Source: Escherichia phage Ecp_YSF
Length of the DNA stretch: 53,268 bases
Sequence record: OR327751.1
Reading direction: 5' to 3' (one strand)
Shown: one piece after another, positions 1-53,268 of the stretch
Layout: every line of letters starts with the position of its first letter
Position numbering within the stretch: position 1 is the stretch's first letter
Program-made: the position numbers and the translations under genes
Notes under the pieces: model-generated
Database searches by the model: none
Seen by the model: the letters and a program-made list of their open reading frames with translations, nothing else
What the model was told of the DNA's origin: nothing

Positions 1-141
1 AAGTTCAGGCTTTCGTTTGGGTTACTCCTCATCCCGAAGTTAGCTGGATTCAAAATCCAGACTATGTTCCTATACACATGAAATATGCAAGTCGAGGGTT
101 CTTAATGTTCAAACATGATGCGAGCATTGAGCGGGTTTATA
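1..141. repeat. Left copy of direct terminal repeat; identical to 53128-53268
   Basis: Exact 141-nt identity with the last 141 nt of the window; repeat may extend beyond the window edge. Contains 7-bp hairpin CTGGATT-caa-AATCCAG at 44-60. Confidence 0.9.
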
Positions 142-6179: not shown

Positions 6180-7202
6180 GTGAGTAAGAAACGAGTTTTG
6201 TTGCTGGTTGACGGCGACATGGTTGCATTCAGTCACTGTGCTGCTGAGGAATACGGCAAAGATTCAGAAGATATTAACTTTGCTAAGATTCAAATGTCAA
6301 TGGATTCCAAGATGGAATTCCTTGCGAAACGTGTAGGAGCTACAGAAGTAGTTACCTGCATTTCACCATCCAAAACATTCCGTAACGTTCTTGCCGAAAA
6401 TTACAAAGGCAACCGTGATGATGTTTGGCGACCAGAAAACTTGAAGAATGCGAAAGCACATCTTATGGTTGCCTGGAATGGCGTATGGATGAAAGGTTTG
6501 GAAGCAGATGACCTCCTTGCCGTATTCGCACGTCATGAATACGAAATGACAATGGGTAAACGTAATGAGATTAAGAGCCTCAAGCGCATTGGTCCTTGCA
6601 CATATGATGAAGTCTGGATTGCGTCGCTGGACAAAGACTTGCGACAAATCGGGCAGAATGGTGGTGCTGGTCCAGTAATTAAACATTACCAATGGGAACG
6701 AGAAACCCAAAACATTGGCGAGAAGGTTGTAACTCCGCAGGATTACGGCGAACTCAAATTAATCATCAAGGACAATGGCAAATCGAAGAAGAAAGAAGTT
6801 AAAGGCAATGGCCCTAAATTCTTCTTGCACCAATTGCTTATTGGCGACTCAACGGATAACGTTATGGGTTGCGGAGTTCTTGAAGAAAGAATCTACAAAA
6901 CTGGTGCCAAAGCCGGAGAAACTTATTTCCGTCGTGACGGCATTGGTGCAGTCGCTTCATTCGAGATGCTGGATGGTACAACCTCCTATGCAGAAGGTTT
7001 GAAGAAAGTTATTGGTGCATACATTATGCGCTTCGGAGATGGTTGGGAACAAGAGCTACTCAAAGTGGGCCGTCTTGTTTACATGCACCATCAAATTGAA
7101 AAGGGTAATTGTGTTCGCTTATGGCATTACAAGAACATTAACGAATACTTTGACCTTAAAGAGAATCGTATCCTCACTCAAGAAGAGTACCTCCATAAAT
7201 AA
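6180..7202 (+). CDS. 5'-3' exonuclease / flap endonuclease (T7 gp6-like)
   Basis: N-terminal LLLVDGD motif and H3TH-like LIGDSTDNVMG. GTG at 6180 follows a GGAG; the track's TTG at 6165 lies inside the upstream terminator U-tract. Confidence 0.8.
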   Translation: MSKKRVLLLVDGDMVAFSHCAAEEYGKDSEDINFAKIQMSMDSKMEFLAKRVGATEVVTCISPSKTFRNVLAENYKGNRDDVWRPENLKNAKAHLMVAWNGVWMKGLEADDLLAVFARHEYEMTMGKRNEIKSLKRIGPCTYDEVWIASLDKDLRQIGQNGGAGPVIKHYQWERETQNIGEKVVTPQDYGELKLIIKDNGKSKKKEVKGNGPKFFLHQLLIGDSTDNVMGCGVLEERIYKTGAKAGETYFRRDGIGAVASFEMLDGTTSYAEGLKKVIGAYIMRFGDGWEQELLKVGRLVYMHHQIEKGNCVRLWHYKNINEYFDLKENRILTQEEYLHK

Positions 7203-7213
7203 TTGGAGTTGGA

Positions 7214-7738
7214 ATGGCTTACGGTTATTGTGGAACGGAAGCCAAGTTTGTATCTTGGCTCCAATCTGCTATTCGAAGTGTTTGGTCTAAACACCCAAGC
7301 AAACTTGCGCTGATACAATCTCGACGCATTGCATTGAAGGTCGGTGACTCAAAGAAACCAATCTTCCACATTCAATGCTACCATTGCAAGAAGTTGTATA
7401 AGCTCAAAGATATTGAAGTAAACCACAAAGTTCAAGTTGGTGGCCTCCTTAAGTTGGAAGACCTGCACCGCTTTGTGGACAACCTTCTACTGGTTCAGCC
7501 AGAAGATTTGGAATTGCTGTGTAAAGATTGTCACGGCATTATCACATACATGGAACGATATGGTGTATCACGACGTGATGCAGTCATTGAGAAGAAGTGT
7601 ATTGCGTTTGCCAAATTGTCTGACGAAGAGCAAGTTGCCAAGTGCAATCTTGCTAAAATAGAGCCAGTTCCTAAAACCAAAATCGGACGCAAGAATGCTG
7701 TTCGAGAATACCTGAGAAAGAATCTTAATGTCTATTAA
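7214..7738 (+). CDS. HNH endonuclease (free-standing, homing-endonuclease-like)
   Basis: CYHCKK ... EVNHK ... CKDCH pattern (CxxC, H-N-H, CxxC). Confidence 0.55.
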   Translation: MAYGYCGTEAKFVSWLQSAIRSVWSKHPSKLALIQSRRIALKVGDSKKPIFHIQCYHCKKLYKLKDIEVNHKVQVGGLLKLEDLHRFVDNLLLVQPEDLELLCKDCHGIITYMERYGVSRRDAVIEKKCIAFAKLSDEEQVAKCNLAKIEPVPKTKIGRKNAVREYLRKNLNVY

Positions 7739-37115: not shown

Positions 37116-39056
37116 ATGATTACTATCACCACTCAAACTATCAAATCTGTTGTTCCTGCTATCACTGCTCTGGTATACCGTGCCAAAGAGAAGCAGAACT
37201 ATATGCAGCCTCAGACTTGTGCTATTGCTGCCCTAGCCATATTCAAGATGATGACGTCTTTCACTCGTGATGACGTTGTTCCTGCCATTGCGATGGTTGA
37301 GCTGGCTTCTGCTTCTATTGCTGATGCCAACCGCTACAACAACGATTTGAAAGCAATGCACTATGTTGACCCAGCTATCAACCTCATTGGTTTGGCTAAG
37401 CACTTTGGCTTCATCACCATGAACGAAGACAAGTCATTCCAGCAAACTGACACATGGGTTGAACTGGTTACAACCAAAGACACAGCAGTGCCATTCACTG
37501 AGCGTGTTACATCTGAATCTCGTCGCAAGCCTTTCGTTAAAGGTGGCAAAGTTAAGCCATCCAAAACTCTGAAAGCTGCAATCGAATTCCTGCAAGATAC
37601 TGAGTACCATGTGGAGACTGAGATGGTTCGCATCATCCAGTCCATGCTTGAGCAACGTACTTATGGTGGCTTGCAGATGCCAGAAGCAATCCAAACTGAA
37701 CTCCATGTTTGGAACAATGCTGTAGCAATGATGAATCAGGATAAGCTGTATTCTGACTACTTTGCTGATAACCGTGGTCGTCTGTATCATGTAGCATGTG
37801 CTGGTCCTAACCCACAATCCTCTGACTTTGCTCGTTGCTTGTATTCTCACAATGTTGAGAACATCGTTAAGAAGTTTAACGAAGATGGTTCTACTACCAT
37901 TGCATACAACATGTTCATGGCAGAGCTGGAAGATATTTCCGGTGGTGAATGGTGCAGTGCTAAGCGTTTAACTTATGTTGCTCAGAATCCAGCTGGTTCA
38001 CTTGCTCGCATGATGAACATGCCTAAAGCTGAGCGTCCTTCTAAGCCATTCACTTATGTTCGTCTGGCTCTGGATTGGTTCAAGTTTGAGACTACAGGTG
38101 AATGCGATTCTCGTGTAGGCTTTGGCTTAGATGCTAAATGTTCTGGTACTCAATATCTGGCATTCATTGCTGGTAACATGGAAATGGCTCGTGCAACAGG
38201 TCTGGTTGATTCTGAGACTAAAGCATCTGACCCATACCAGTTGAGTCTTCGTGAACTGTTGAAGCTGCTGGACAAGTCTTCAATGAAACCATCTCCTGAA
38301 ATTATGGATGAATTCTTGAATCCGAAAGCTGGTCGTAAGTTTATCAAAACTCCATACATGGCTATCCAATATGGTGGTGGTAAAGCTGCACTAACTGGTT
38401 CTTCTGACTTTATCTCCTACATGACAGAAGCTCTCCAGATTCCTATGGAGAAAGCTGAGGCATTTGCTGAACTGTGTGTAGAAGCAATCCATAACGCATT
38501 GGGTGCTAAGATTAACATGTTCATTGAGAAAGCTGCTGATGCTGCATACAACCGTTGTGTTGAACTTGGTAAAGAGTACATCACATACCGTCACACTGAT
38601 GGTCAGGTTGTAATGAAGCCTTGCTTCCCATCTCGTGAAATCTGTGAGGCATTCAGCATTCGTGTTGACTCCCAAACTCGTGTTATCTTTGGTCAGATTC
38701 AGGAGAATAAGCCTTGGACCATTCGTGAATCCAATCCAACTAAAGAAGAATTCAAGCGTACTTTCGTTGTTAACTACATTCAAGGTATTGACGCACTGGT
38801 TGCTCGTACTGTTGCAGTTAAAGCTAAAGAAGCTGGTCTTCGTGGCTTTACTTCAATTCACGATTGTTTCCGTTGCTGCTTAGCTGATGCTCCACGTATG
38901 ATGGAAGTTATTCGTGCAGCATATGTTGAAATCTTCGTAACCAACAATCAATTCGAGAATCTGTCTAAGCAACTCGGTGGCATTCAGATGTATCATGAGA
39001 ACATCGTAACCGAAGAGCTTCTGATGAGCGAACACGCTTACTACTTCTGTCAATAA
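37116..39056 (+). CDS. Single-subunit DNA-dependent RNA polymerase (T7-like catalytic core, compact 646 aa)
   Basis: Motif A-like LDAKCSGTQYLAF; motif B-like RKFIKTPYMAIQYGGGKA; motif C-like FTSIHDCFRC; RBS GGAGAC before ATG. Confidence 0.75.
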   Translation: MITITTQTIKSVVPAITALVYRAKEKQNYMQPQTCAIAALAIFKMMTSFTRDDVVPAIAMVELASASIADANRYNNDLKAMHYVDPAINLIGLAKHFGFITMNEDKSFQQTDTWVELVTTKDTAVPFTERVTSESRRKPFVKGGKVKPSKTLKAAIEFLQDTEYHVETEMVRIIQSMLEQRTYGGLQMPEAIQTELHVWNNAVAMMNQDKLYSDYFADNRGRLYHVACAGPNPQSSDFARCLYSHNVENIVKKFNEDGSTTIAYNMFMAELEDISGGEWCSAKRLTYVAQNPAGSLARMMNMPKAERPSKPFTYVRLALDWFKFETTGECDSRVGFGLDAKCSGTQYLAFIAGNMEMARATGLVDSETKASDPYQLSLRELLKLLDKSSMKPSPEIMDEFLNPKAGRKFIKTPYMAIQYGGGKAALTGSSDFISYMTEALQIPMEKAEAFAELCVEAIHNALGAKINMFIEKAADAAYNRCVELGKEYITYRHTDGQVVMKPCFPSREICEAFSIRVDSQTRVIFGQIQENKPWTIRESNPTKEEFKRTFVVNYIQGIDALVARTVAVKAKEAGLRGFTSIHDCFRCCLADAPRMMEVIRAAYVEIFVTNNQFENLSKQLGGIQMYHENIVTEELLMSEHAYYFCQ

Positions 39057-48147: not shown

Positions 48148-48324
48148 ATGATTAAAGTTCTGGAAAAAGATAACGTAACCTTCGCACGTCAGTGTGGAGG
48201 ATGTTTCTCTGTAGTATCTTACGTGTTCTCTGACTTAAAGATGTACACAGGAAAGAATGACCGAGGATACTTCGCATACAGATTCATTACTTGTCCTGTT
48301 TGCAAGAAGAGTATTCGGCATTAG
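48148..48324 (+). CDS. Small Cys-containing protein (58 aa)
   Basis: Motif copy g abuts the ATG; C-terminal CPVCKK; the track's longer ORF (48055) would contain the motif. Confidence 0.35.
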   Translation: MIKVLEKDNVTFARQCGGCFSVVSYVFSDLKMYTGKNDRGYFAYRFITCPVCKKSIRH

Positions 48325-48337
48325 TTGGAATTGAAAC
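48317..48337 (+). promoter_or_regulatory. Conserved phage motif copy h
   Basis: CGGCATTAGTTGGAATTGAAA; overlaps stop codon of the upstream ORF. Confidence 0.35.
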
Positions 48338-48352
48338 AACATCAGATAAGAG

Positions 48353-48417
48353 CTTTGTAACTAGGTAGTCCGTCTGGTACCAAGACGTGTGAGAACGTTC
48401 GATTCGTTCTACAAAGC
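48353..48417 (+). ncRNA. tRNA-like structured element (acceptor-like stem and canonical T-arm; reduced D region)
   Basis: CTTTGTA pairs with TACAAAG (extendable to 11 bp); hairpin CGTCT-GGTACCA-AGACG; T-arm GAACG-TTCGATT-CGTTC; followed by CTCTTTTCG. Confidence 0.4.
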
Positions 48418-48969
48418 TCTTTTCGATGGAATGTTTCCATCATATACATTTATCTTTTAACATAGGCCAAAGGGCCGGAATACTTATTCGCAGAAAAGCT
48501 ATTCACTTGTTATAGGCGATGTATTGGGATGAATTAGAACTAAATAAGCAAGCTGTTAGGGCTGAATAATTAGAGGGTTGTGCCTCATGCTTATGTTAGT
48601 CATTCGAAAATAGGTTTGTGCCACAAGCTGCTGGTGCTCTGAGGAAGTCGGACAAACAGGGCTTAGAGTGGCATAATCCGCACAAAACCGCGCCACCAGC
48701 TATGCCAAAGCAGGTGGATTGGGTGAATGTATTGGGAAGGGTTGCAAAGCCTCTGCGAGCACGGTATCGCGTATAATAAGTGACGTCTGCGCTGCGTGTA
48801 TCGCACCCTAACGGGAGTAACCCTTCGCCAATGCAGTTATCCAGAATTGACACAAACGGTAGGCAGTGGCCCGATTTTCGGCCTTCCTGTGCTACCCTGT
48901 GGCCTGTTTCATGGGCCAAAAGATGAGAAGAGAAGTCACAAACCCCGAATCGAAAATTGGAGAGTTCCT

Positions 48970-49260
48970 ATGATTCGCAAACATTCTATCCGGGTAATTA
49001 AGGCCCGTAATATTCACACAGGAGAGATGGAAGCATTCGCTTTCTTGGGTGGAAAGTTTTATTTATTTGGTTGGGAAGGAAGTGATTTAAAGTTTGAATT
49101 CTTTATGAATATGTACTCGATTAAAGAGTTGTTAAACAATGCGACCTACGGACCATCCTACATGGAATATTGTTTCGGCAAGCCAGTCGAGCATCTTCTG
49201 TCCAAATCTTTCATTTACAGCTGGACAACAAACCAACCAGTTTACGGAGTTCCATTTTGA
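48970..49260 (+). CDS. Hypothetical protein (96 aa)
   Basis: ATG with GGAGAG upstream. Confidence 0.45.
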   Translation: MIRKHSIRVIKARNIHTGEMEAFAFLGGKFYLFGWEGSDLKFEFFMNMYSIKELLNNATYGPSYMEYCFGKPVEHLLSKSFIYSWTTNQPVYGVPF

Positions 49261-49547
49261 ACTTACAAGACAAATCTAAAGAAGAGTTGATTGAGATTAT
49301 CCAGAAAGAGCACGAACTCGCTGGCATCACAATCAACTATGAACTCCGGGCAATGCAAGCTGTTGCTTTGGGTCATGGTCTAATGGCTACACTCATTCAT
49401 GCCAAGAATGTGTTAGGCATTGACAACGAAAAATACCAAATTCTGGAGAAAGCTGCGCAAGAGCGGATTTCGCAGTGCTTGGTGACATTAGTTGATTTGG
49501 GAATCGACGCAGAAACTGCGAACAAACGTATCCTACAAGGCCACTAA
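49257..49547 (+). CDS. Hypothetical protein
   Basis: TTG start with GGAG upstream, overlapping previous stop; internal ATG is an alternative. Confidence 0.35.
   Translation: MNLQDKSKEELIEIIQKEHELAGITINYELRAMQAVALGHGLMATLIHAKNVLGIDNEKYQILEKAAQERISQCLVTLVDLGIDAETANKRILQGH
49484..49501 (+). promoter_or_regulatory. Conserved phage motif copy j (inside 3' end of upstream gene)
   Basis: GACATTAGTTGATTTGGG, about 48 nt upstream of ATG 49549. Confidence 0.3.
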
Positions 49548-49548
49548 A

Positions 49549-50223
49549 ATGTCTTATCATGATGATGACAAAGAGATTGCACTATCAACGTGTAAGCAAT
49601 GGCTCAATGATAATGATGCCGTCTATCTTGCCAAGGAAGATGTTATCATTATGTGGGTCCATTTTAATCCAGAATCGAAGCGCGGTGAGTGGCAACGCTA
49701 CAAGATGAAAGAGGCTTGTCGCATAATTAAAGCCACACGCGCTGGCTTCTCTGCTATGAAATACATCAAGCCAGAGATGCTGATGCTTGCTGCACAGGAA
49801 GAAGAACGTGCATATAAGCAAGCTGTTAAATCTCGTTCAACTGTTCCTCCAGAGTTCTTTAATTTGGAGCGCGCTGGACACTTCAACAATTTAGAAATGT
49901 TGACACTGTGCCTGTTGCAAGAATTAGTTGGAAGAGGACAAAACATTGAAGCTGTTTGTCTTGGAGAACTTATGAAAGAGTTGTTCTCGGCAAAGGGCTT
50001 TGCTGTGCCAAATCGAACTTTACGCTGGAAATTGTTGCGAGCAGTCGCTCAAGAAGCTGGTGTAGTTGTTCGTGACAGAACAAACCGACTCACTGTAACT
50101 GGAGTTGGGCGTTTTGTAGCAATCCAGATTGAGGGTTATGACGAATCAATCATCACTGAACTCACTGTCGATGAGACAAAGGATTTAGTAAATAAAACAC
50201 TAGAACGATTCAATAGATACTGA
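49549..50223 (+). CDS. Hypothetical protein (224 aa)
   Basis: ATG-initiated; no recognised motif. Confidence 0.5.
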   Translation: MSYHDDDKEIALSTCKQWLNDNDAVYLAKEDVIIMWVHFNPESKRGEWQRYKMKEACRIIKATRAGFSAMKYIKPEMLMLAAQEEERAYKQAVKSRSTVPPEFFNLERAGHFNNLEMLTLCLLQELVGRGQNIEAVCLGELMKELFSAKGFAVPNRTLRWKLLRAVAQEAGVVVRDRTNRLTVTGVGRFVAIQIEGYDESIITELTVDETKDLVNKTLERFNRY

Positions 50224-50247
50224 GTCGTTTGACGAATCAGAGCAGTT

Positions 50248-50272
50248 CTGAAACATTAGTTGGATGTGGAAA
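50248..50272 (+). promoter_or_regulatory. Conserved phage motif copy i
   Basis: CTGAAACATTAGTTGGATGTGGAAA. Confidence 0.4.
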
Positions 50273-50346
50273 GAGAAAGGCTCTTTAATTTTATCTAAGT
50301 CACGTCATCGTGGCGTGCAAAACTATTCAATATAAGGTATATACAA

Positions 50347-50685
50347 ATGGCTAAGATTGTAACCGTAACTCAGTACGAAGCTAACGATGGTTCCCTGTTC
50401 CTGACCGAAGCAGAGTGTAATGCACACGACTTCAAACTGGAAAACGGTGCTAAAATTGAGAAAGCTGCCGAAGCGTACCTGAACACCGTTGGCGCTATCG
50501 ACCGTTCTCGCTCCATGCAGAAGAACACCATCGAGCAGTTCCTGGCATTCTACCTGCCGTGGGTTGAAGCTGGTGAGCCGGAAGTTGAGCGTACTAAGTT
50601 CGATACTCCGAAAGAAGCCAAAGTTGCTGACGCAAGTGTTGCCGAAGCTGCCGAAGCTGCTGTTGAAGAAGCTCCGGTATTCTAA
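50347..50685 (+). CDS. Hypothetical protein with acidic Ala/Glu-rich C-terminus (112 aa)
   Basis: ATG with AAGGT upstream. Confidence 0.5.
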   Translation: MAKIVTVTQYEANDGSLFLTEAECNAHDFKLENGAKIEKAAEAYLNTVGAIDRSRSMQKNTIEQFLAFYLPWVEAGEPEVERTKFDTPKEAKVADASVAEAAEAAVEEAPVF

Positions 50686-50726
50686 GTTGCCGATGGCAAA
50701 CTTGAGAGACTAAGCTAAATCGATCT

Positions 50727-50757
50727 GGCATGCACTGGGAGATCTGCCAGTGCTGCC
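50727..50757 (+). other. Stable hairpin downstream of last small gene
   Basis: GGCA-t-GCACTGG (8-nt loop) CCAGTGC-t-GCC; no U-tract. Confidence 0.35.
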
Positions 50758-51583
50758 TTGAATCCCATTCCAGAGTGAGTGGGCTTCAATGAGCATTCTT
50801 GTGATTAGAGTTGGGAGGTAGGCCGATGCCCAAGCTCGTGGCCCAGACAAGAGTGTTCATTGAAGTAGTTTTCTGAGTCTTACGACGGGCCTAAACTGCC
50901 TGGAGTTATTGCGACTGTTTTATTCATTTAAAATAAATGCAAATGATTCTGAAATGCGAGTTGCGGCTTAATTAAATTTAAGTCCTCTCCGTGGTCTTCC
51001 AATCCCACGTAACCAAATTTGGCGCATTGTGGCTTCGAGATGTGATTAATAAATCGGAGCAATAATTAATTTGTATTCTGCGATGCAAAGCAGGCTTAAG
51101 TCCTCCAGTGCGCGTGGGGATGTGACAGAGTACAAACTTAATTATGCAGTTGGATATTTCTAGAGGACGGACGAGCACACTGGAATGTCTTCAATTGGTT
51201 TAGTGTGAGAAGCTATGCCAATTTGAAACGTAACTCCTTGGGGAAGTGCTCCTCTGGATTTCCCTCCACACAGGAATCTCAAGCCTGTGGCAGCGACTTC
51301 GAAGCTGCACTGCGTAACCTAATTCACCCTAAAGTGAGTTGCCCTGAGCATGGAAATAAACTGCTCTAACCGATGGTATCTACAAAGGTAGATTAAATCA
51401 GGTTGCCTGTTGGTACTTGGGTTCAACACCTGCTTGCACTCGCAAAGTAGTGCCTCGTACCTGAGATGAAGTGAGTCGGGACCATCAATCCCACGTTATG
51501 TCAAAACACAGTAGGCGACTCACAGATTCTACAAGCCTCGCAGTTCGGGAAAACCTGCGTTATCAAAACCCCCCCCTCAATTT

Positions 51584-51676
51584 GGACGAGTAGCTCAGAA
51601 GGTCTGCTCCAGAGCTTAGTCAGGTAGAGCAATCTGTTCGACAGATGTGTCGTTGGTTCGAATCCAACCTCGTCCA
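51584..51676 (+). tRNA. tRNA-like gene, possibly type II (Leu-CAG-like), with atypical D region; CCA encoded at 51677-51679
   Basis: Acceptor GGACGAG / CTCGTCC; T-arm GTTGG-TTCGAAT-CCAAC; candidate anticodon arm 51614-51630 with loop GTCAGGT; variable-arm hairpin ATCTG-TTCGA-CAGAT; D region does not fold canonically by hand. Confidence 0.45.
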
Positions 51677-51706
51677 CCAACTCTCAATAATAAACATGGA
51701 GTCCTT

Positions 51707-51847
51707 ATGGACATTGATGCACTAGACAATTTGGACTTCGGTGCTGCCGAAGAAGCAATTGAAGAACTCAAGAAAAAGCAGGACGAAGAAGCAATCGTTC
51801 CTGGTGCTGGCGATAACGACTGCTCAAGTGGTGCGTGCGCCATCTAA
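51707..51847 (+). CDS. Small acidic protein (46 aa)
   Basis: RBS GGAG before ATG 51707. Confidence 0.35.
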   Translation: MDIDALDNLDFGAAEEAIEELKKKQDEEAIVPGAGDNDCSSGACAI

Positions 51848-51855
51848 GGTGATTT

Positions 51856-52092
51856 ATGCAACAGCTTAAATCAATAATTCTTGGCGTCCTGACTGCATTT
51901 GGTATTATCATTGCAGTGTTCCTCAAAGGCAAAAGCTCAGGCAAAGCCGAGGAGCGTCAGGAAGCCACAGAGAAGCAACTAGATTCATTAAAAGAATCTA
52001 TCGAGATTAAATCGCATGTTCAGAAAGAAGTGTCTAGCAGTTCTGATAGCAATGTCGATAGTGAGTTGCTCTCAAAGTGGGTTCGTAAGTGA
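51856..52092 (+). CDS. Small membrane protein, i-spanin-like topology
   Basis: N-terminal TM segment IILGVLTAFGIIIAVFL followed by charged helical region. Confidence 0.4.
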   Translation: MQQLKSIILGVLTAFGIIIAVFLKGKSSGKAEERQEATEKQLDSLKESIEIKSHVQKEVSSSSDSNVDSELLSKWVRK

Positions 52093-52225
52093 TTATTGCT
52101 TAATTGCACAACCAATCTATTTGGATGTTGCAGAAGTGAAAATCTTATCACGCGAAACCAAAACACAGATTTTAGTCCACAATGAAACGTGGGCACAAAA
52201 GTGTTCGAAACTTACCCGACAGTGA
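52016..52225 (+). CDS. Putative lipoprotein, o-spanin-like, overlapping the upstream gene in another frame
   Basis: MFRKKCLAVLIAMSIVSC has lipobox-like IVSC; ORF overlaps 3' end of 51856-52092. Confidence 0.3.
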   Translation: MFRKKCLAVLIAMSIVSCSQSGFVSDYCLIAQPIYLDVAEVKILSRETKTQILVHNETWAQKCSKLTRQ

Positions 52226-52546
52226 GTGAACATGGCCTAGCTAGTTGGTGGTGTAAAGACTGACCAAGGTGACGACAGCCAAAGTCGAGGGAGTGCGCGA
52301 CTTTAAATAACGAGACTCTAGCCACTTGTGGTATGGCAGGTGTAACTCCTGCAATTGCTCTGGGCATAACAATTAAAATTGCTGCCTCGTATTGAACGCG
52401 AGAAAGTTCAGGTGGTCACTTCCTAGAACAGTGTCCGAGAACACACTCGCCAAAGTGCTTGAGAACGTTAGCTCTGTCTTGCCAGCATTAATGGCACGTT
52501 GGCCGCGTAAAGGCCGCAACCTCAATCATATATAAGGTAGTCTTCT

Positions 52547-52747
52547 ATGGACAAAATTAGCATTCGTGCAATCATTCGTAACGCAATCATTAATAATGAG
52601 GTGCGTACATATCAGTATCAAGAAATTCAGGTAGCTCTAGGTTGTAGCCGACATAAGGCAAAGCAACTTTATTACGCATTTCTGTATAACGCAGGGGATG
52701 CATTTCTTCGCAAGAAGTTGACAGAACCTGATAGCGACCCTTGTTAA
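52547..52747 (+). CDS. Hypothetical protein (66 aa)
   Basis: ATG with AAGGTAG upstream. Confidence 0.45.
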   Translation: MDKISIRAIIRNAIINNEVRTYQYQEIQVALGCSRHKAKQLYYAFLYNAGDAFLRKKLTEPDSDPC

Positions 52748-52789
52748 TCATCACAGCGTCTGGCCAACGTATCGGCCGCCAAATTCAAT

Positions 52790-52857
52790 GGGATTTTCGT
52801 ATGTACGGGCTTGACCGTGGTGAAACGACCTGACTGGTTCGATTCCAGTGAATCCCA
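52790..52857 (+). ncRNA. tRNA-like acceptor/T-arm element
   Basis: GGGATTT pairs with GAATCCC; T-arm ACTGG-TTCGATT-CCAGT; intervening region does not form a cloverleaf by hand. Confidence 0.3.
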
Positions 52858-53127
52858 CGAACAATGGATTCGTAGAGTTAATTAAACCTGCACGATGGGA
52901 TAGGGATGAAGCATCCGAGGCCGACTGTGTAATTGTGAACTTATCGTTCACCGAATCCACCAAATACCCGGGAGAAAGTGCTGTGGACGATATTGTATCG
53001 TAGGTGGTCGCATTCCACCCTCCCAACTCTTACCAAACAGTTATGCCTCTGTTCAAAAGGCTCAAGAGAGCGTCTGGCATACCGTAGCGATACGGCTTAG
53101 TTGCGCTGATTGTGTTGTGCAGAAAGA

Positions 53128-53268
53128 AAGTTCAGGCTTTCGTTTGGGTTACTCCTCATCCCGAAGTTAGCTGGATTCAAAATCCAGACTATGTTCCTAT
53201 ACACATGAAATATGCAAGTCGAGGGTTCTTAATGTTCAAACATGATGCGAGCATTGAGCGGGTTTATA
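53128..53268. repeat. Right copy of direct terminal repeat; identical to 1-141
   Basis: Exact 141-nt identity with window start. Confidence 0.9.

What the first reader, a model, noticed from the sequence alone, without database searches (positions are those of the whole stretch)
48349..48425. Additional tRNA-like acceptor/T-arm elements lacking a full cloverleaf
At 48353-48417 an acceptor-like stem (extendable to 11 bp) encloses a 5-bp/7-nt hairpin and a canonical T-arm (GAACG-TTCGATT-CGTTC), but only about 9 nt remain for the D region and the loop lacks U33. It sits immediately downstream of motif copy h and is followed by a U-tract. A second element at 52790-52857 has acceptor GGGATTT/GAATCCC and T-arm ACTGG-TTCGATT-CCAGT. 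These may be RNase P or CCA-enzyme substrates, processing punctuation, or decayed tRNA genes.
Basis: seen in the sequence. Interest (0 to 1): 0.5.

Follow-up and report, generated by a model that had tools for sequence, protein, structure and literature searches.

The report
Stalked tRNA-like RNA modules in phage
Neither site is a tRNA gene: the first is a conserved folded RNA made just after a phage promoter, a two-turn double-stranded stalk capped by a real tRNA-type T-arm, and the second is a rare, probably decaying tRNA-like cassette; neither is annotated in this phage family.

Summary
The window is a whole Chaseviridae (Carltongylesvirus-like) phage genome.

Element 1 (48339-48428) is a real, selected RNA structure on the + strand.
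- Across 13 distinct relatives, 97% of cells pair (35-49% in slid controls) and 10 pairs show compensatory changes.
- There are 14 G·U and 0 A·C cells.
- The T-loop follows the tRNA rule (G53, U54 U55 C56 R57 A58, C61).

It is not a tRNA. It has no D-stem, no conserved anticodon loop and no CCA, and ARAGORN and Rfam do not call it. The invariant parts are the phage promoter, the leader, a 19-23-position stalk and a following hairpin. The capped "cargo" is swapped among relatives: four types have a T-arm, two do not.

My best reading, which is inferred, is a T7-style RNase III processing stalk that releases a small tRNA-elbow mimic.

Element 2 (52786-52861) is a 76-nt cassette flanked by CAATGG repeats. 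It sits in a tandem array of tRNA and tRNA-like units and occurs in only three genomes. It is probably a degenerate tRNA copy.

A conserved tmRNA-like tag frame (ANDSEMRVAA) lies nearby.

The parts
48317..48338 (+). Phage (T7-like single-subunit RNAP) promoter motif, copy 'h', plus the first transcribed bases
   Evidence: The motif matches at 48319-48336. The homologous 20-mer is annotated as 'putative phage promoter 5' in phiEcoM-GJ1 and as a promoter in SA91KD. The window encodes an RNA_pol (PF00940) protein at 37116-39056. Activity has not been tested.
48340..48358 (+). Stalk, 5' strand (CAUC-A-GA-U-AAGAGCUUUGU)
   Evidence: 17 pairs, 100% of cells paired in 13 distinct sequences, 7 pairs changed on both sides. 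The same stalk layout is seen in six cargo variants.
48359..48370 (+). Single-stranded junction AACUAGGUAGUC (D-loop-like, holds GG). Nearly invariant: AACUnGGUAGnC
   Evidence: Invariant columns in alignment A2. The proposed 3-bp mini D-stem is not supported (82% paired, no covariation).
48371..48387 (+). Inner hairpin CGUCU-GGUACCA-AGACG. The loop sequence is not conserved but always holds a GC-rich palindrome
   Evidence: 5 pairs, 2 with double changes, 93.5% paired. Loops are GGUACC, CGGCCG, GCGGCCGC and CGGCGCCG in variants A-C.
48392..48410 (+). T-arm AGAACG-UUCGAUU-CGUUCU, coaxial with the stalk (no base between its 3' strand and the stalk's 3' strand)
   Evidence: 6 pairs, 100% paired, one compensatory pair C-G to U-A. 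Loop variants are UUCGAUU, UUCGACU, UUCAACU, UUCGAAU, UUCGAUG and UUCAAUG. These keep U54 U55 C56 R57 A58 and G53-C61.
48411..48428 (+). Stalk, 3' strand (ACAAAGCUCUU-U-UC-GAUG).
48425..48441 (+). Conserved hairpin GAUGGAAUGUUUCCAUC. Its GAUG is shared with the base of the stalk
   Evidence: Identical or nearly so in all 23 relatives aligned and in phiA050. Exact matches in IMG/VR and metagenome contigs of the same phage group.
52786..52861 (+). Element 2: a 76-nt cassette bounded by direct repeats CAATGG (52786-52791 and 52862-52867). It holds acceptor GGGAUUU/GAAUCCC, an inner arm, and T-arm ACUGG-UUCGAUU-CCAGU, followed by ACGA rather than NCCA
   Evidence: Present only in the window, PO103-1 and flopper. 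In 13 other relatives the flanks join precisely. No ARAGORN, Rfam tRNA or R1 hit.
52866..52962 (+). Neighbouring cassette of the same array: GGAUUCG...GUGAAC-UUAUC-GUUCAC-CGAAUCC-ACCA (7-bp terminal stem, ACCA end, no T-loop)
   Evidence: z = -3.2.
51584..51679 (+). Third T-arm/acceptor unit: the aberrant 'tRNA-Arg' of this phage group (GGACGAG...CUCGUCC-ACCA) with an oversized D-region
   Evidence: Rfam tRNA scores 27.9 bits, below the gathering score of 29. It is annotated tRNA-Arg in GJ1 and ST32. ARAGORN calls nothing in the window and gives inconsistent calls in relatives.
50784..50865 (+). Second stalked cassette: a 20-bp stalk (CUUCAAUGAGCAUUCUUGU / ACAAGAGUGUUCAUUGAAG) around a 44-nt cargo that has no T-loop
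   Evidence: R1 hit, 17 bits; z = -4.25; I6.

Best explanation
Element 1 is a structured RNA module at the very 5' end of the transcript that starts at a phage-RNAP promoter.

Shown:
- It is a stalk of about two helical turns (19-23 stacked positions) formed by the leader and the sequence 3' of the element.
- The stalk closes a three-way junction whose arms are a variable hairpin and a genuine tRNA-type T-arm stacked on the stalk.
- The structure is maintained by selection on the + strand RNA.
- The promoter, leader, stalk and following hairpin are constant across the phage subfamily. The capped cargo is exchangeable, with or without a T-arm.

Inferred:
- The stalk is a host RNase III processing site of the T7 type, in which a promoter is immediately followed by an RNase III site.
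- Cleavage in the stalk trims the leader and sets the 5' end of the downstream untranslated RNA (about 540 nt) and of the mRNA beyond it.
- Cleavage also frees the cargo (about 55-70 nt) as a small RNA. In this phage that RNA presents a tRNA elbow (T-loop plus a conserved GG-containing strand) but cannot be charged or decode.

Element 2 is a different object. It is one 76-nt cassette in a tandem array of tRNA and tRNA-like units between the spanin and thyX genes. It keeps the 3' half of a tRNA (T-arm plus acceptor strand) but has no D-arm, no 7-nt anticodon loop and no CCA. It is most likely a degenerate or chimeric tRNA gene copy that is gained and lost by recombination at the CAATGG junctions. 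It may have no function of its own.
For: Identity and context:
- The window is about 95% identical to EcoM1, ST32 and phiEcoM-GJ1.
- The motif is the annotated phage promoter, and a T7-like RNAP gene is present.

Structure:
- MFE z = -4.2.
- 97.3% of cells paired against 35-49% in slid controls; 10 pairs with double changes; 0 of 500 shuffles reach the observed values.
- 14 G·U and 0 A·C cells, so the + strand RNA is what is selected.
- T-loop positions 54-58 and the 53-61 pair are kept while 57 varies G/A and 59-60 vary freely. This also holds in variant E, whose stems are entirely different.

Stalk as the constant part:
- The same CAUC...GAUG stalk holds six different cargos (A, B, C and E with a T-arm; D and F without).
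- Stalk length is always about 19-23 positions. It is a 20-bp duplex with a single G·U and no mismatch or bulge in 4HA13, and there is a second 20-bp stalk (with two G·U pairs) at 50784-50865.
- In T7, a promoter with an RNase III site just downstream of the start is a common arrangement (PMC6938266, read).

Element 2:
- Precise presence/absence with CAATGG repeats.
- Found in only 3 genomes in the phage collection, counting the window.
- Only its 3' half resembles tRNAs.
- The syntenic array in other genera holds real tRNAs (Rfam 58, 47 and 35 bits).
Against: - There are no expression or end-mapping data. Promoter use, RNase III cleavage and release of a small RNA are all inferred.
- In most variants the stalk is interrupted by a bulged A and a U·U mismatch, and only 17 Watson-Crick/G·U pairs precede the junction. 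Reactivity with RNase III cannot be predicted from sequence.
- The single-stranded junction strands and the T-loop are the most conserved bases in variants A-C. That suggests the cargo itself has a specific partner, which a pure 'processing site' reading does not explain.
- For element 2 there is no sequence variation among the three copies, so selection cannot be tested either way. It folds no better than shuffles.
Confidence: 0.45

Rival explanations
1. The cargo is the point. Element 1 makes a small tRNA-elbow mimic, perhaps a dimer through its palindromic loop. It binds or titrates a host or phage protein that reads the T-loop/D-loop corner of tRNA, for example TruB, TrmA, RNase P, or a tRNA-directed defence nuclease. 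The stalk only insulates and stabilises it, much as the terminal stem does in Y RNAs.
For: - The T-loop consensus and the GG-containing junction strand are invariant in variants A-C and more conserved than the stems.
- An independent-looking variant E again carries a canonical T-arm plus a UGGAUU linker.
- Loop palindromes change by paired substitutions (GGUACC, CGGCCG, CGGCGCCG).
- Topology is the same as reported for D. radiodurans Yrn1: terminal stem, D-like strand, stem-loop, T-arm (PMC4201824).
Against: - Relatives Pel53, Faunus and phiA050 carry cargos without any T-loop at the same site.
- There is no Rfam Y RNA hit.
- No partner protein was identified. Neighbouring ORFs have no informative Pfam match.
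- Variant E has no loop palindrome.
Confidence: 0.22
2. One reading: the elements are RNase P and/or CCA-adding-enzyme substrates that punctuate the transcript the way tRNAs do.
For: - Canonical T-arm stacked on an acceptor-like stem.
- Neighbouring array units end in NCCA followed by AAU, and the next unit starts GG.
- Proteus phage Myduc, a relative, encodes a putative CCA-adding nucleotidyltransferase in the syntenic region.
- M. smegmatis YrlA is cut by RNase P when it has a 7-bp acceptor stem (PMC4201824).
Against: - In element 1 the would-be leader is base-paired for about 10 more positions, the T-stem plus stalk stack is at least 17 bp rather than 12, and there is no CCA or free 3' tail.
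- T-arm-less cargos occupy the same socket.
- Element 2 ends ACGA (CCGA in the other two genomes) and has no covariation support.
Confidence: 0.15
3. The elements act at the DNA level, as a replication origin or primer site downstream of tandem phage promoters (as at the T7 primary origin), or as a recombination or protein-binding palindrome.
For: Two phage promoters in tandem (48131, 48319) are followed by a non-coding stretch that includes an AT-rich run. The region is a hotspot of cassette exchange.
Against: All non-Watson-Crick cells in the helices that remain paired are G·U on the + strand (14 against 0 A·C). That fits RNA, not duplex DNA. Helices covary while their sequence is free.
Confidence: 0.05
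4. Element 1 is a decayed tRNA pseudogene or an intrinsic terminator.
For: tRNA-like parts without a full cloverleaf. In the window the stem is followed by UUUUCG.
Against: Strong compensatory evolution argues against decay. The T-run is part of the stalk and is absent in 4HA13, MLP1 and flopper. The terminator scan does not call it.
Confidence: 0.03

Closest known systems
Bacteriophage T7 RNase III processing sites placed just downstream of phage promoters (R3.8/phi3.8, R6.5/phi6.5)
   Same: The phage has a T7-type RNAP. An irregular double-stranded stem of about two turns lies immediately after the promoter start, in a polycistronic same-strand genome (PMC6938266).
   Different: T7 sites are simple hairpins with an internal loop. 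Here the stalk closes a three-way junction with a T-arm, and the cargo is exchangeable. Cleavage is untested.
Bacterial Y RNAs with a tRNA-like module (D. radiodurans Yrn1; YrlA)
   Same: A long terminal stem made by the 5' and 3' ends, plus a module with a canonical T-arm and a D-like strand, no CCA, and not chargeable. Yrn1 has the same order of parts (PMC4201824).
   Different: No Rfam hit. No GNCGAAN0-1G Ro-binding motif seen by eye in the stalk. No D-stem.
tRNA-like domain of tmRNA
   Same: Acceptor-type stem plus T-arm, a D-loop without a D-stem, and a helix in place of the anticodon arm. A tmRNA-like tag frame lies 2.5 kb downstream.
   Different: No G3·U70, no ACCA end, and the stem extends far beyond 7 bp. 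tmRNA models do not match.
D-arm-less (truncated) tRNAs of animal mitochondria
   Same: Acceptor, a short connector instead of a D-arm, one 5-bp/7-nt hairpin, a 4-5 nt linker, and a T-arm. This comparison is my own knowledge, not tested here.
   Different: The inner-loop sequence is not conserved and lacks U33. There is no 3' CCA or free acceptor end. The T-loop here is fully canonical, unlike most truncated mitochondrial tRNAs.
Phage tRNA gene clusters with degenerate or pseudo-tRNAs (for element 2)
   Same: A tandem same-strand array, short AU-rich spacers, real tRNAs at the syntenic place in PM1, Myduc and Y2, and variable content between close relatives.
   Different: Element 2 has no D-arm, no 7-nt anticodon loop and no CCA. 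It is not called by ARAGORN or Rfam.

Membership tests
tRNA (Rfam RF00005 / ARAGORN) | Recognised by tRNA covariance and heuristic models | tested here: not met
   ARAGORN finds 0 genes in the window. Rfam has no hit at gathering and no RF00005 hit at E<=10 for either element.
tRNA (Rfam RF00005 / ARAGORN) | T-arm: 5-bp stem, G53-C61, loop U54 U55 C56 R57 A58 N N | tested here: met
   Both elements meet it. The pattern is conserved across variants A, B, C and E.
tRNA (Rfam RF00005 / ARAGORN) | 7-bp acceptor stem with a free discriminator and CCA (encoded or added) | tested here: not met
   Element 1: the helix continues for 17-20 pairs and is followed by UUUUCGAUG, which pairs with the leader. 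Element 2: a 7-bp stem followed by ACGA/CCGA. Post-transcriptional CCA addition cannot be tested here.
tRNA (Rfam RF00005 / ARAGORN) | D-arm, and an anticodon arm with a 7-nt loop, U33 and purine 37 | tested here: not met
   Element 1: an 11-nt strand, with the mini-stem unsupported. The loop is GGUACCA (G33) and is replaced by unrelated loops in relatives. Element 2: 6-nt loop GCUUGA and no D-stem.
tmRNA tRNA-like domain | Alanine identity pair G3·U70, ACCA 3' end, T-arm, joined to a tag-encoding domain | tested here: not met
   No G·U at position 3 and no CCA in either element. tmRNA-clan models give at most 12.5 bits, on element 2's T-arm. A search for NCCA-terminated stems that could serve the tag module found none.
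Y RNA (YrlA / Yrn1) | Match to the Rfam Y RNA models; Ro-binding motif GNCGAAN0-1G in the terminal stem; linkage to an rsr (TROVE) gene | tested here: inconclusive
   No Rfam family reaches gathering in the window. The E<=10 scan, which covered 48200-53268 only, reported no Y RNA family among its hits. The motif was not seen in the stalk by eye. The ten ORFs scanned against Pfam have no TROVE domain, but not all ORFs were scanned.
RNase III processing site (T7 type) | About 20 bp (two turns) of mostly continuous double helix in the transcript | tested here: met
   19-23 stacked positions in all six variants. There are 20-bp duplexes without mismatch or bulge (G·U pairs allowed) in 4HA13 and at 50784-50865. 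Pairing is maintained by covariation.
RNase III processing site (T7 type) | Site-specific cleavage by RNase III in vivo or in vitro | not testable with these tools
   No expression or biochemical data are available.
Rho-independent terminator | GC-rich hairpin directly followed by a conserved U-tract | tested here: not met
   Not called by the scan. The T-run is part of the stalk and is absent in several relatives.

The most novel reading that the evidence does not exclude
The late part of this phage's early region (48.3-53.3 kb, running on past the terminal overlap to about position 308) is an 'RNA island' of translation-machinery mimics, transcribed by the phage RNAP and cut out by host RNases.

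- Element 1's cargo would be a released tRNA-elbow decoy. It would self-pair through its palindromic loop and sequester a tRNA-reading host factor or a tRNA-targeting defence nuclease.
- It would work alongside a tmRNA-like tag RNA (ANDSEMRVAA) that has no recognisable tRNA-like domain of its own, and alongside an array of armless, NCCA-ended tRNA-like RNAs.
- The interchangeable cargos in one socket would then be alternative countermeasures, swapped between phages according to host.
Probability: 0.12. Interest if true: 0.8.

Novelty: new variant of a known kind. Interest (0 to 1): 0.55.

Why it matters
Chaseviridae genomes are annotated as almost pure protein-coding, with "one tRNA-Arg". This work shows that several kilobases of the region hold conserved, modular structured RNAs that no annotation or RNA-family library recognises.

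Element 1 is a clean, covariation-supported example. It is a genuine T-loop/tRNA-elbow module displayed on a two-turn stalk directly behind a phage promoter, and relatives carry other cargos in the same socket. That gives a natural swap experiment: exchange cargos between phages to ask what a tRNA-elbow mimic does during infection.

It also bears on current questions about phage tRNAs, tRNA-targeting defences and RNA decoys. If the stalk is an RNase III site, T7-style transcript punctuation extends to a myovirus family, and the apical part of such sites can be used to express small RNAs.

Tried and rejected
- ARAGORN on the window and 26 related loci. It finds none at either element and gives inconsistent calls for the 51584 unit.
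- Rfam at gathering and at E<=10. Nothing for either element.
- Covariance model R1 of element 1. It finds its homologues and the D-type stalks, and weakly the 50784 stalk. It does not find element 2, the 51584 unit, or the E-type variants with default filters.
- Collection scans for more diversity. IMG/VR and metagenome scans with the conserved flanks returned only known variants.
- Element 2 and the tag module against 5,426 E. coli genomes. No match, so neither is captured host DNA.
- Pfam on ten ORFs (five adjacent to the RNA island, five elsewhere). No tRNA-, tmRNA- or Ro-related protein.
- Terminator and sigma-70 promoter scan. Nothing at the elements.
- A loose 'acceptor plus hairpin' geometry scan without the T-loop sequence. 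It gave about 170 hits per strand and is uninformative.
- Search for a tRNA-like domain for the tag module.
- One literature search was wasted on over-broad terms.
- Hammerhead or other ribozyme reading. Rejected because no Rfam family matches.
Full report
**What the window is.** The 53,268-base window is a complete phage genome. Its first ~140 bases repeat its last ~140. It is about 95% identical over the query region to Escherichia phages EcoM1, ST32 and phiEcoM-GJ1 (Chaseviridae, Cleopatravirinae, Carltongylesvirus). These phages encode a T7-like single-subunit RNA polymerase, which here lies at 37116-39056 (PF00940). Copy h (48319-48336) is their promoter 5.

**Checking the observation.** Both elements read exactly as described.
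- Neither is called a tRNA. ARAGORN finds no tRNA in the window. Rfam finds nothing at gathering threshold. At E<=10 it gives no tRNA hit on either element, only a 12.5-bit tmRNA-clan hit on element 2's T-arm.
- The pattern is not chance. I scanned for a 5-bp stem with G53/C61 around a TTCRANN loop, directly followed by a strand that forms a 7-bp stem with upstream sequence. This occurs three times, all on the + strand within 48.3-52.9 kb (48353, 51584, 52790). The mean over dinucleotide shuffles is 0.043, and none of 300 shuffles reached 3.
- Without the T-loop sequence the geometry alone is common, about 170 hits per strand. The T-loop is what carries the signal.
- Element 1 folds far better than shuffles (z = -4.2). 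Element 2 does not (z = -0.5).

**Element 1 in relatives.** I fetched the homologous site from 22 relatives and aligned it, and later added phiA050, Y2, PM1 and Myduc. The element lies between two nearly invariant blocks. Upstream is the promoter with its leader (...TTGGAATTGAAGAAACAACATC). Downstream is the hairpin GATGGAATGTTTCCATC. Between these blocks there are at least six sequence variants.
- **A, B and C** are alignable with one another. A is the window, GJ1, PO103-1 and the Yersinia phages. B is Mangalitsa, EcoM1, ST32 and the TH phages. C is 4HA13.
- **E** (MLP1, PYps23T, flopper) has entirely different stems but the same plan: stalk, a hairpin (GUGUAG-AAAU-CUACAC), a UGGAUU linker and a canonical T-arm (ACAGG-UUCGAUG-CCUGU).
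- **D** (Pel53, Faunus) and **F** (phiA050) keep the stalk but carry cargos with no T-loop.

**Covariation in element 1.**
- On 13 distinct A/B/C sequences, 97.3% of cells form standard pairs, against 35-49% when partners are slid by 1-3 columns.
- Ten of 31 pairs change on both sides, and no shuffle of 500 reaches the observed values.
- Every departure from Watson-Crick that stays paired is G·U on the + strand: 14 G·U cells and 0 A·C cells. So the selected molecule is the + strand RNA, the strand the promoter would transcribe.
- The T-loop varies exactly as tRNA T-loops do. U54 U55 C56 and A58 are fixed, position 57 is G or A, positions 59-60 are free, and the closing pair is G53-C61. This holds in A, B, C and E.
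- The most conserved bases are the single-stranded junction strands AACUnGGUAGnCCG and CGUGnGAGAA. That is what one expects if the GG strand docks on the T-loop as the D-loop does in tRNA. The docking itself is inference.

**What element 1 is not.**
- It is not a tRNA. It has no D-stem (the 3-bp mini-stem is unsupported). Its inner loop lacks U33 and is replaced by unrelated loops in relatives.
- The 'acceptor' helix runs on for 17-20 pairs into the transcript leader, and there is no CCA.
- The 'U-tract' is the 3' strand of that helix. It is absent as a tract in 4HA13 and in variant E. The terminator scan does not call the site.
- It is not a decaying pseudogene, given the compensatory evolution.

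**What is constant, and what that suggests.**
- The constant features across all six variants are the promoter, a leader of about 12-15 nt, a stalk that always starts CAUC and ends GAUG, and the following hairpin.
- The stalk spans 19-23 stacked positions. In A, B, D and E it is 4+2+11 or 4+2+15 pairs with a bulged A and a U·U mismatch. In 4HA13 it is a 20-bp duplex with one G·U and no mismatch or bulge. In phiA050 it is about 22 bp.
- The window holds a second cassette of the same kind at 50784-50865. It has a 20-bp stalk (with two G·U pairs) around a 44-nt cargo without a T-loop. The stalk's sequence resembles the 4HA13 stalk of element 1.
- Two helical turns of double-stranded RNA immediately after a phage-RNAP promoter is the arrangement of several T7 RNase III sites. 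The paper read (PMC6938266) states that at R3.8/phi3.8 and R6.5/phi6.5 the start site lies just upstream of the cleavage site, and that this arrangement is common in T7.
- My best explanation is therefore that the stalk is an RNase III processing site. Cleavage would define the 5' end of the downstream RNA: about 540 nt without a credible ORF up to the ATG at 48970, then small genes. It would also release the cargo as a small RNA.
- This step is inferred. Nothing here shows cleavage.

**Why the cargo may matter in its own right.** The T-arm cargo is kept with tRNA-grade conservation in four of six variants, so it is unlikely to be mere decoration.
- Its topology (terminal stem, D-like strand, one stem-loop, T-arm, no CCA) is that described for the Y RNA Yrn1.
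- However, no Y RNA model matches, no Ro-binding motif is visible, and no TROVE protein was seen among the ORFs scanned.
- The inner-hairpin loops of variants A-C all contain GC-rich palindromes that differ by paired substitutions: GGUACC, CGGCCG, GCGGCCGC and CGGCGCCG. In 7-nt loops these cannot pair within one molecule, so they could mediate loop-loop dimerisation. This is an observation with a speculative reading, and variant E lacks it.

**Element 2.** This is a different kind of object.
- In the alignment of 17 genomes, the 76 bases 52786-52861 are present only in the window, PO103-1 and flopper. In 13 other relatives the flanks join exactly, and FXie carries unrelated sequence at this point. 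The unit is bounded by CAATGG direct repeats.
- A search of 50,697 phage records finds it in no other phage. Only its 3' 31 nt weakly resemble generic phage tRNA 3' halves (E = 0.2). E. coli genomes have no match.
- It lies in a mosaic array between the spanin genes and thyX. Units in this array are separated by ...CCA-AAU(U)CAAU-GG... junctions.
- The next unit (52866-52962) has a perfect 7-bp terminal stem and an ACCA end but no T-loop.
- In PM1, Myduc and Y2 the same array holds real tRNAs (Rfam 47, 58 and 35 bits). PM1 and phiA050 also hold mini units of the form GGCGGCG...T-arm...GGCUGCC-ACCA. PM1's tRNA-Cys has the same 17-nt T-arm as element 2.
- Element 2 has no D-arm, a 6-nt inner loop and no CCA. 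The three copies differ at one base, so selection cannot be judged.
- The R1 model of element 1 does not find it.
- The most economical reading is a degenerate or chimeric tRNA copy that comes and goes by recombination at the junction repeats.

**Comparison with known families.**
- Element 1 works like a T7-type RNase III site in its position and stalk.
- It looks like the tRNA-like modules of Y RNAs and of tmRNA in its cargo.
- It is a member of none of these. Defining features were tested and not met for tRNA and tmRNA. The test was inconclusive for Y RNA. The decisive feature of an RNase III site, cleavage, cannot be tested here.
- I found no description of these RNAs in the literature searched. 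The ST32 paper mentions only a 95-bp tRNA-Arg.
- I therefore rate it as a new variant of a known kind.

**A lead outside the finding.** At 50939-50971 a frame reads GCA AAU GAU UCU GAA AUG CGA GUU GCG GCU UAA, which is ANDSEMRVAA-stop. It has the length and ends of the enterobacterial ssrA tag ANDENYALAA.
- Conservation of the frame: it has four synonymous and no non-synonymous changes in 4HA13. It is identical in phiA050. It reads ANDNEMRAAA in Erwinia phage Y2 and ANDSEMRMVA in Faunus.
- It has no consistent in-frame start codon, and the overlapping frame is broken in 4HA13.
- It is followed by a covarying hairpin over the stop codon and by pseudoknot-like covariation.
- tmRNA finders do not call it. 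The only hit is a 20.5-bit match to the permuted-tmRNA model.
- I could not find a tRNA-like domain for it.
- The 50784-50865 stalk abuts its 5' edge.
- Whether the T-arm modules relate to this tag RNA is open.

**Verdict.** Element 1 is a real, previously unannotated structured RNA of moderate interest whose mechanism needs end-mapping. Element 2 is probably ordinary decay within a phage tRNA array.

Noticed in passing
window 50862-51145 (tag frame 50939-50971): A tmRNA-like messenger module. The frame ANDSEMRVAA-stop has no start codon and changes only synonymously in 4HA13. It is also present in phiA050 (identical), Y2 (ANDNEMRAAA) and Faunus (ANDSEMRMVA). It is followed by a covarying hairpin over the stop codon and by a pseudoknot-like covariation (CCAA/UUGG against UCGA/UCGA). 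ARAGORN and Rfam tmRNA models do not call it, and no tRNA-like domain was found for it. Alternatively, the coding signal could belong to a 5-codon mini-ORF, MRVAA.
   Followed up: partly
window 50784-50865: A second 'stalked cassette': a 20-bp stalk (with two G·U pairs, no mismatch) around a 44-nt cargo (GGGAGGUAGGCCG...), z = -4.25. The stalk sequence resembles the 4HA13 version of element 1's stalk, and its 3' strand abuts the tag module. The cargo reappears at a different position in Faunus.
   Followed up: partly
window 51584-51679: The family's 'tRNA-Arg' is aberrant. It has acceptor GGACGAG/CUCGUCC-ACCA and a good T-arm, but a D-region of about 30 nt that looks like a partial D-arm duplication. 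Rfam scores it 27.9 bits (below the threshold of 29). ARAGORN calls nothing here and gives Leu, Ser or undetermined in relatives. Pel53 has a 71-nt version. A second GGACGAG lies at 51169.
   Followed up: partly
window 50690-51585 and 52230-53268, continuing into 141-308: The non-coding stretches are mosaics of modules that are present or absent between close relatives. Breakpoints lie near 50862, 51145, 51316, 51408 and 51529. In the second stretch the junctions read CCAAAU(U)CAAUGG. Several units end in NCCA.
   Followed up: partly
window 48429-48969: About 540 nt downstream of element 1 has no credible ORF in the window, and most relatives annotate nothing there. GJ1's 'exonuclease SbcC' ORF there is probably spurious. 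It contains many GC-rich stems. No Rfam match.
   Followed up: no
window 48376-48382 and homologous loops in L005, L008, L013, L015: The inner-hairpin loops of element 1 always contain a GC-rich palindrome (GGUACC, CGGCCG, GCGGCCGC or CGGCGCCG) that changes by paired substitutions. They may be kissing-loop dimerisation sites. All four are also classical restriction-site sequences.
   Followed up: partly
window 48150-48326: A small ORF of 58 codons with two CxxC pairs (zinc-ribbon-like) starts right after promoter copy g (48131). Its stop codon TAG lies inside promoter copy h (CATTAGTTGG).
   Followed up: no
L042 (Proteus phage Myduc) 7868-8437: This relative encodes a putative CCA-adding nucleotidyltransferase next to the tRNA-like array, at the syntenic place just before the primase/helicase gene.
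   Followed up: no
window 1-140 and 53128-53268: The two ends of the window are the same sequence, either a terminal repeat or a circular permutation. Features near the right end therefore continue at position ~141.
   Followed up: yes
window 664, 51001, 51487, 52851: The 9-mer AATCCCACG occurs four times exactly, where about 0.4 is expected. Three copies are in the non-coding RNA region, one of them as the 3' acceptor strand of element 2.
   Followed up: no
L039 (phiA050) 6735-6785; L041 (PM1) 7298-7350; L039 7968-8035: Very small tRNA-like units of about 50-65 nt: a 6-7-bp terminal stem, a short insert and a T-arm. Most end in ACCA (CCAAA in the first phiA050 unit). The unit GGCGGCG...GGCUGCC-ACCA is shared by PM1 and phiA050 with different inserts, and one copy has the tmRNA-type T-loop UUCAACU.
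   Followed up: no
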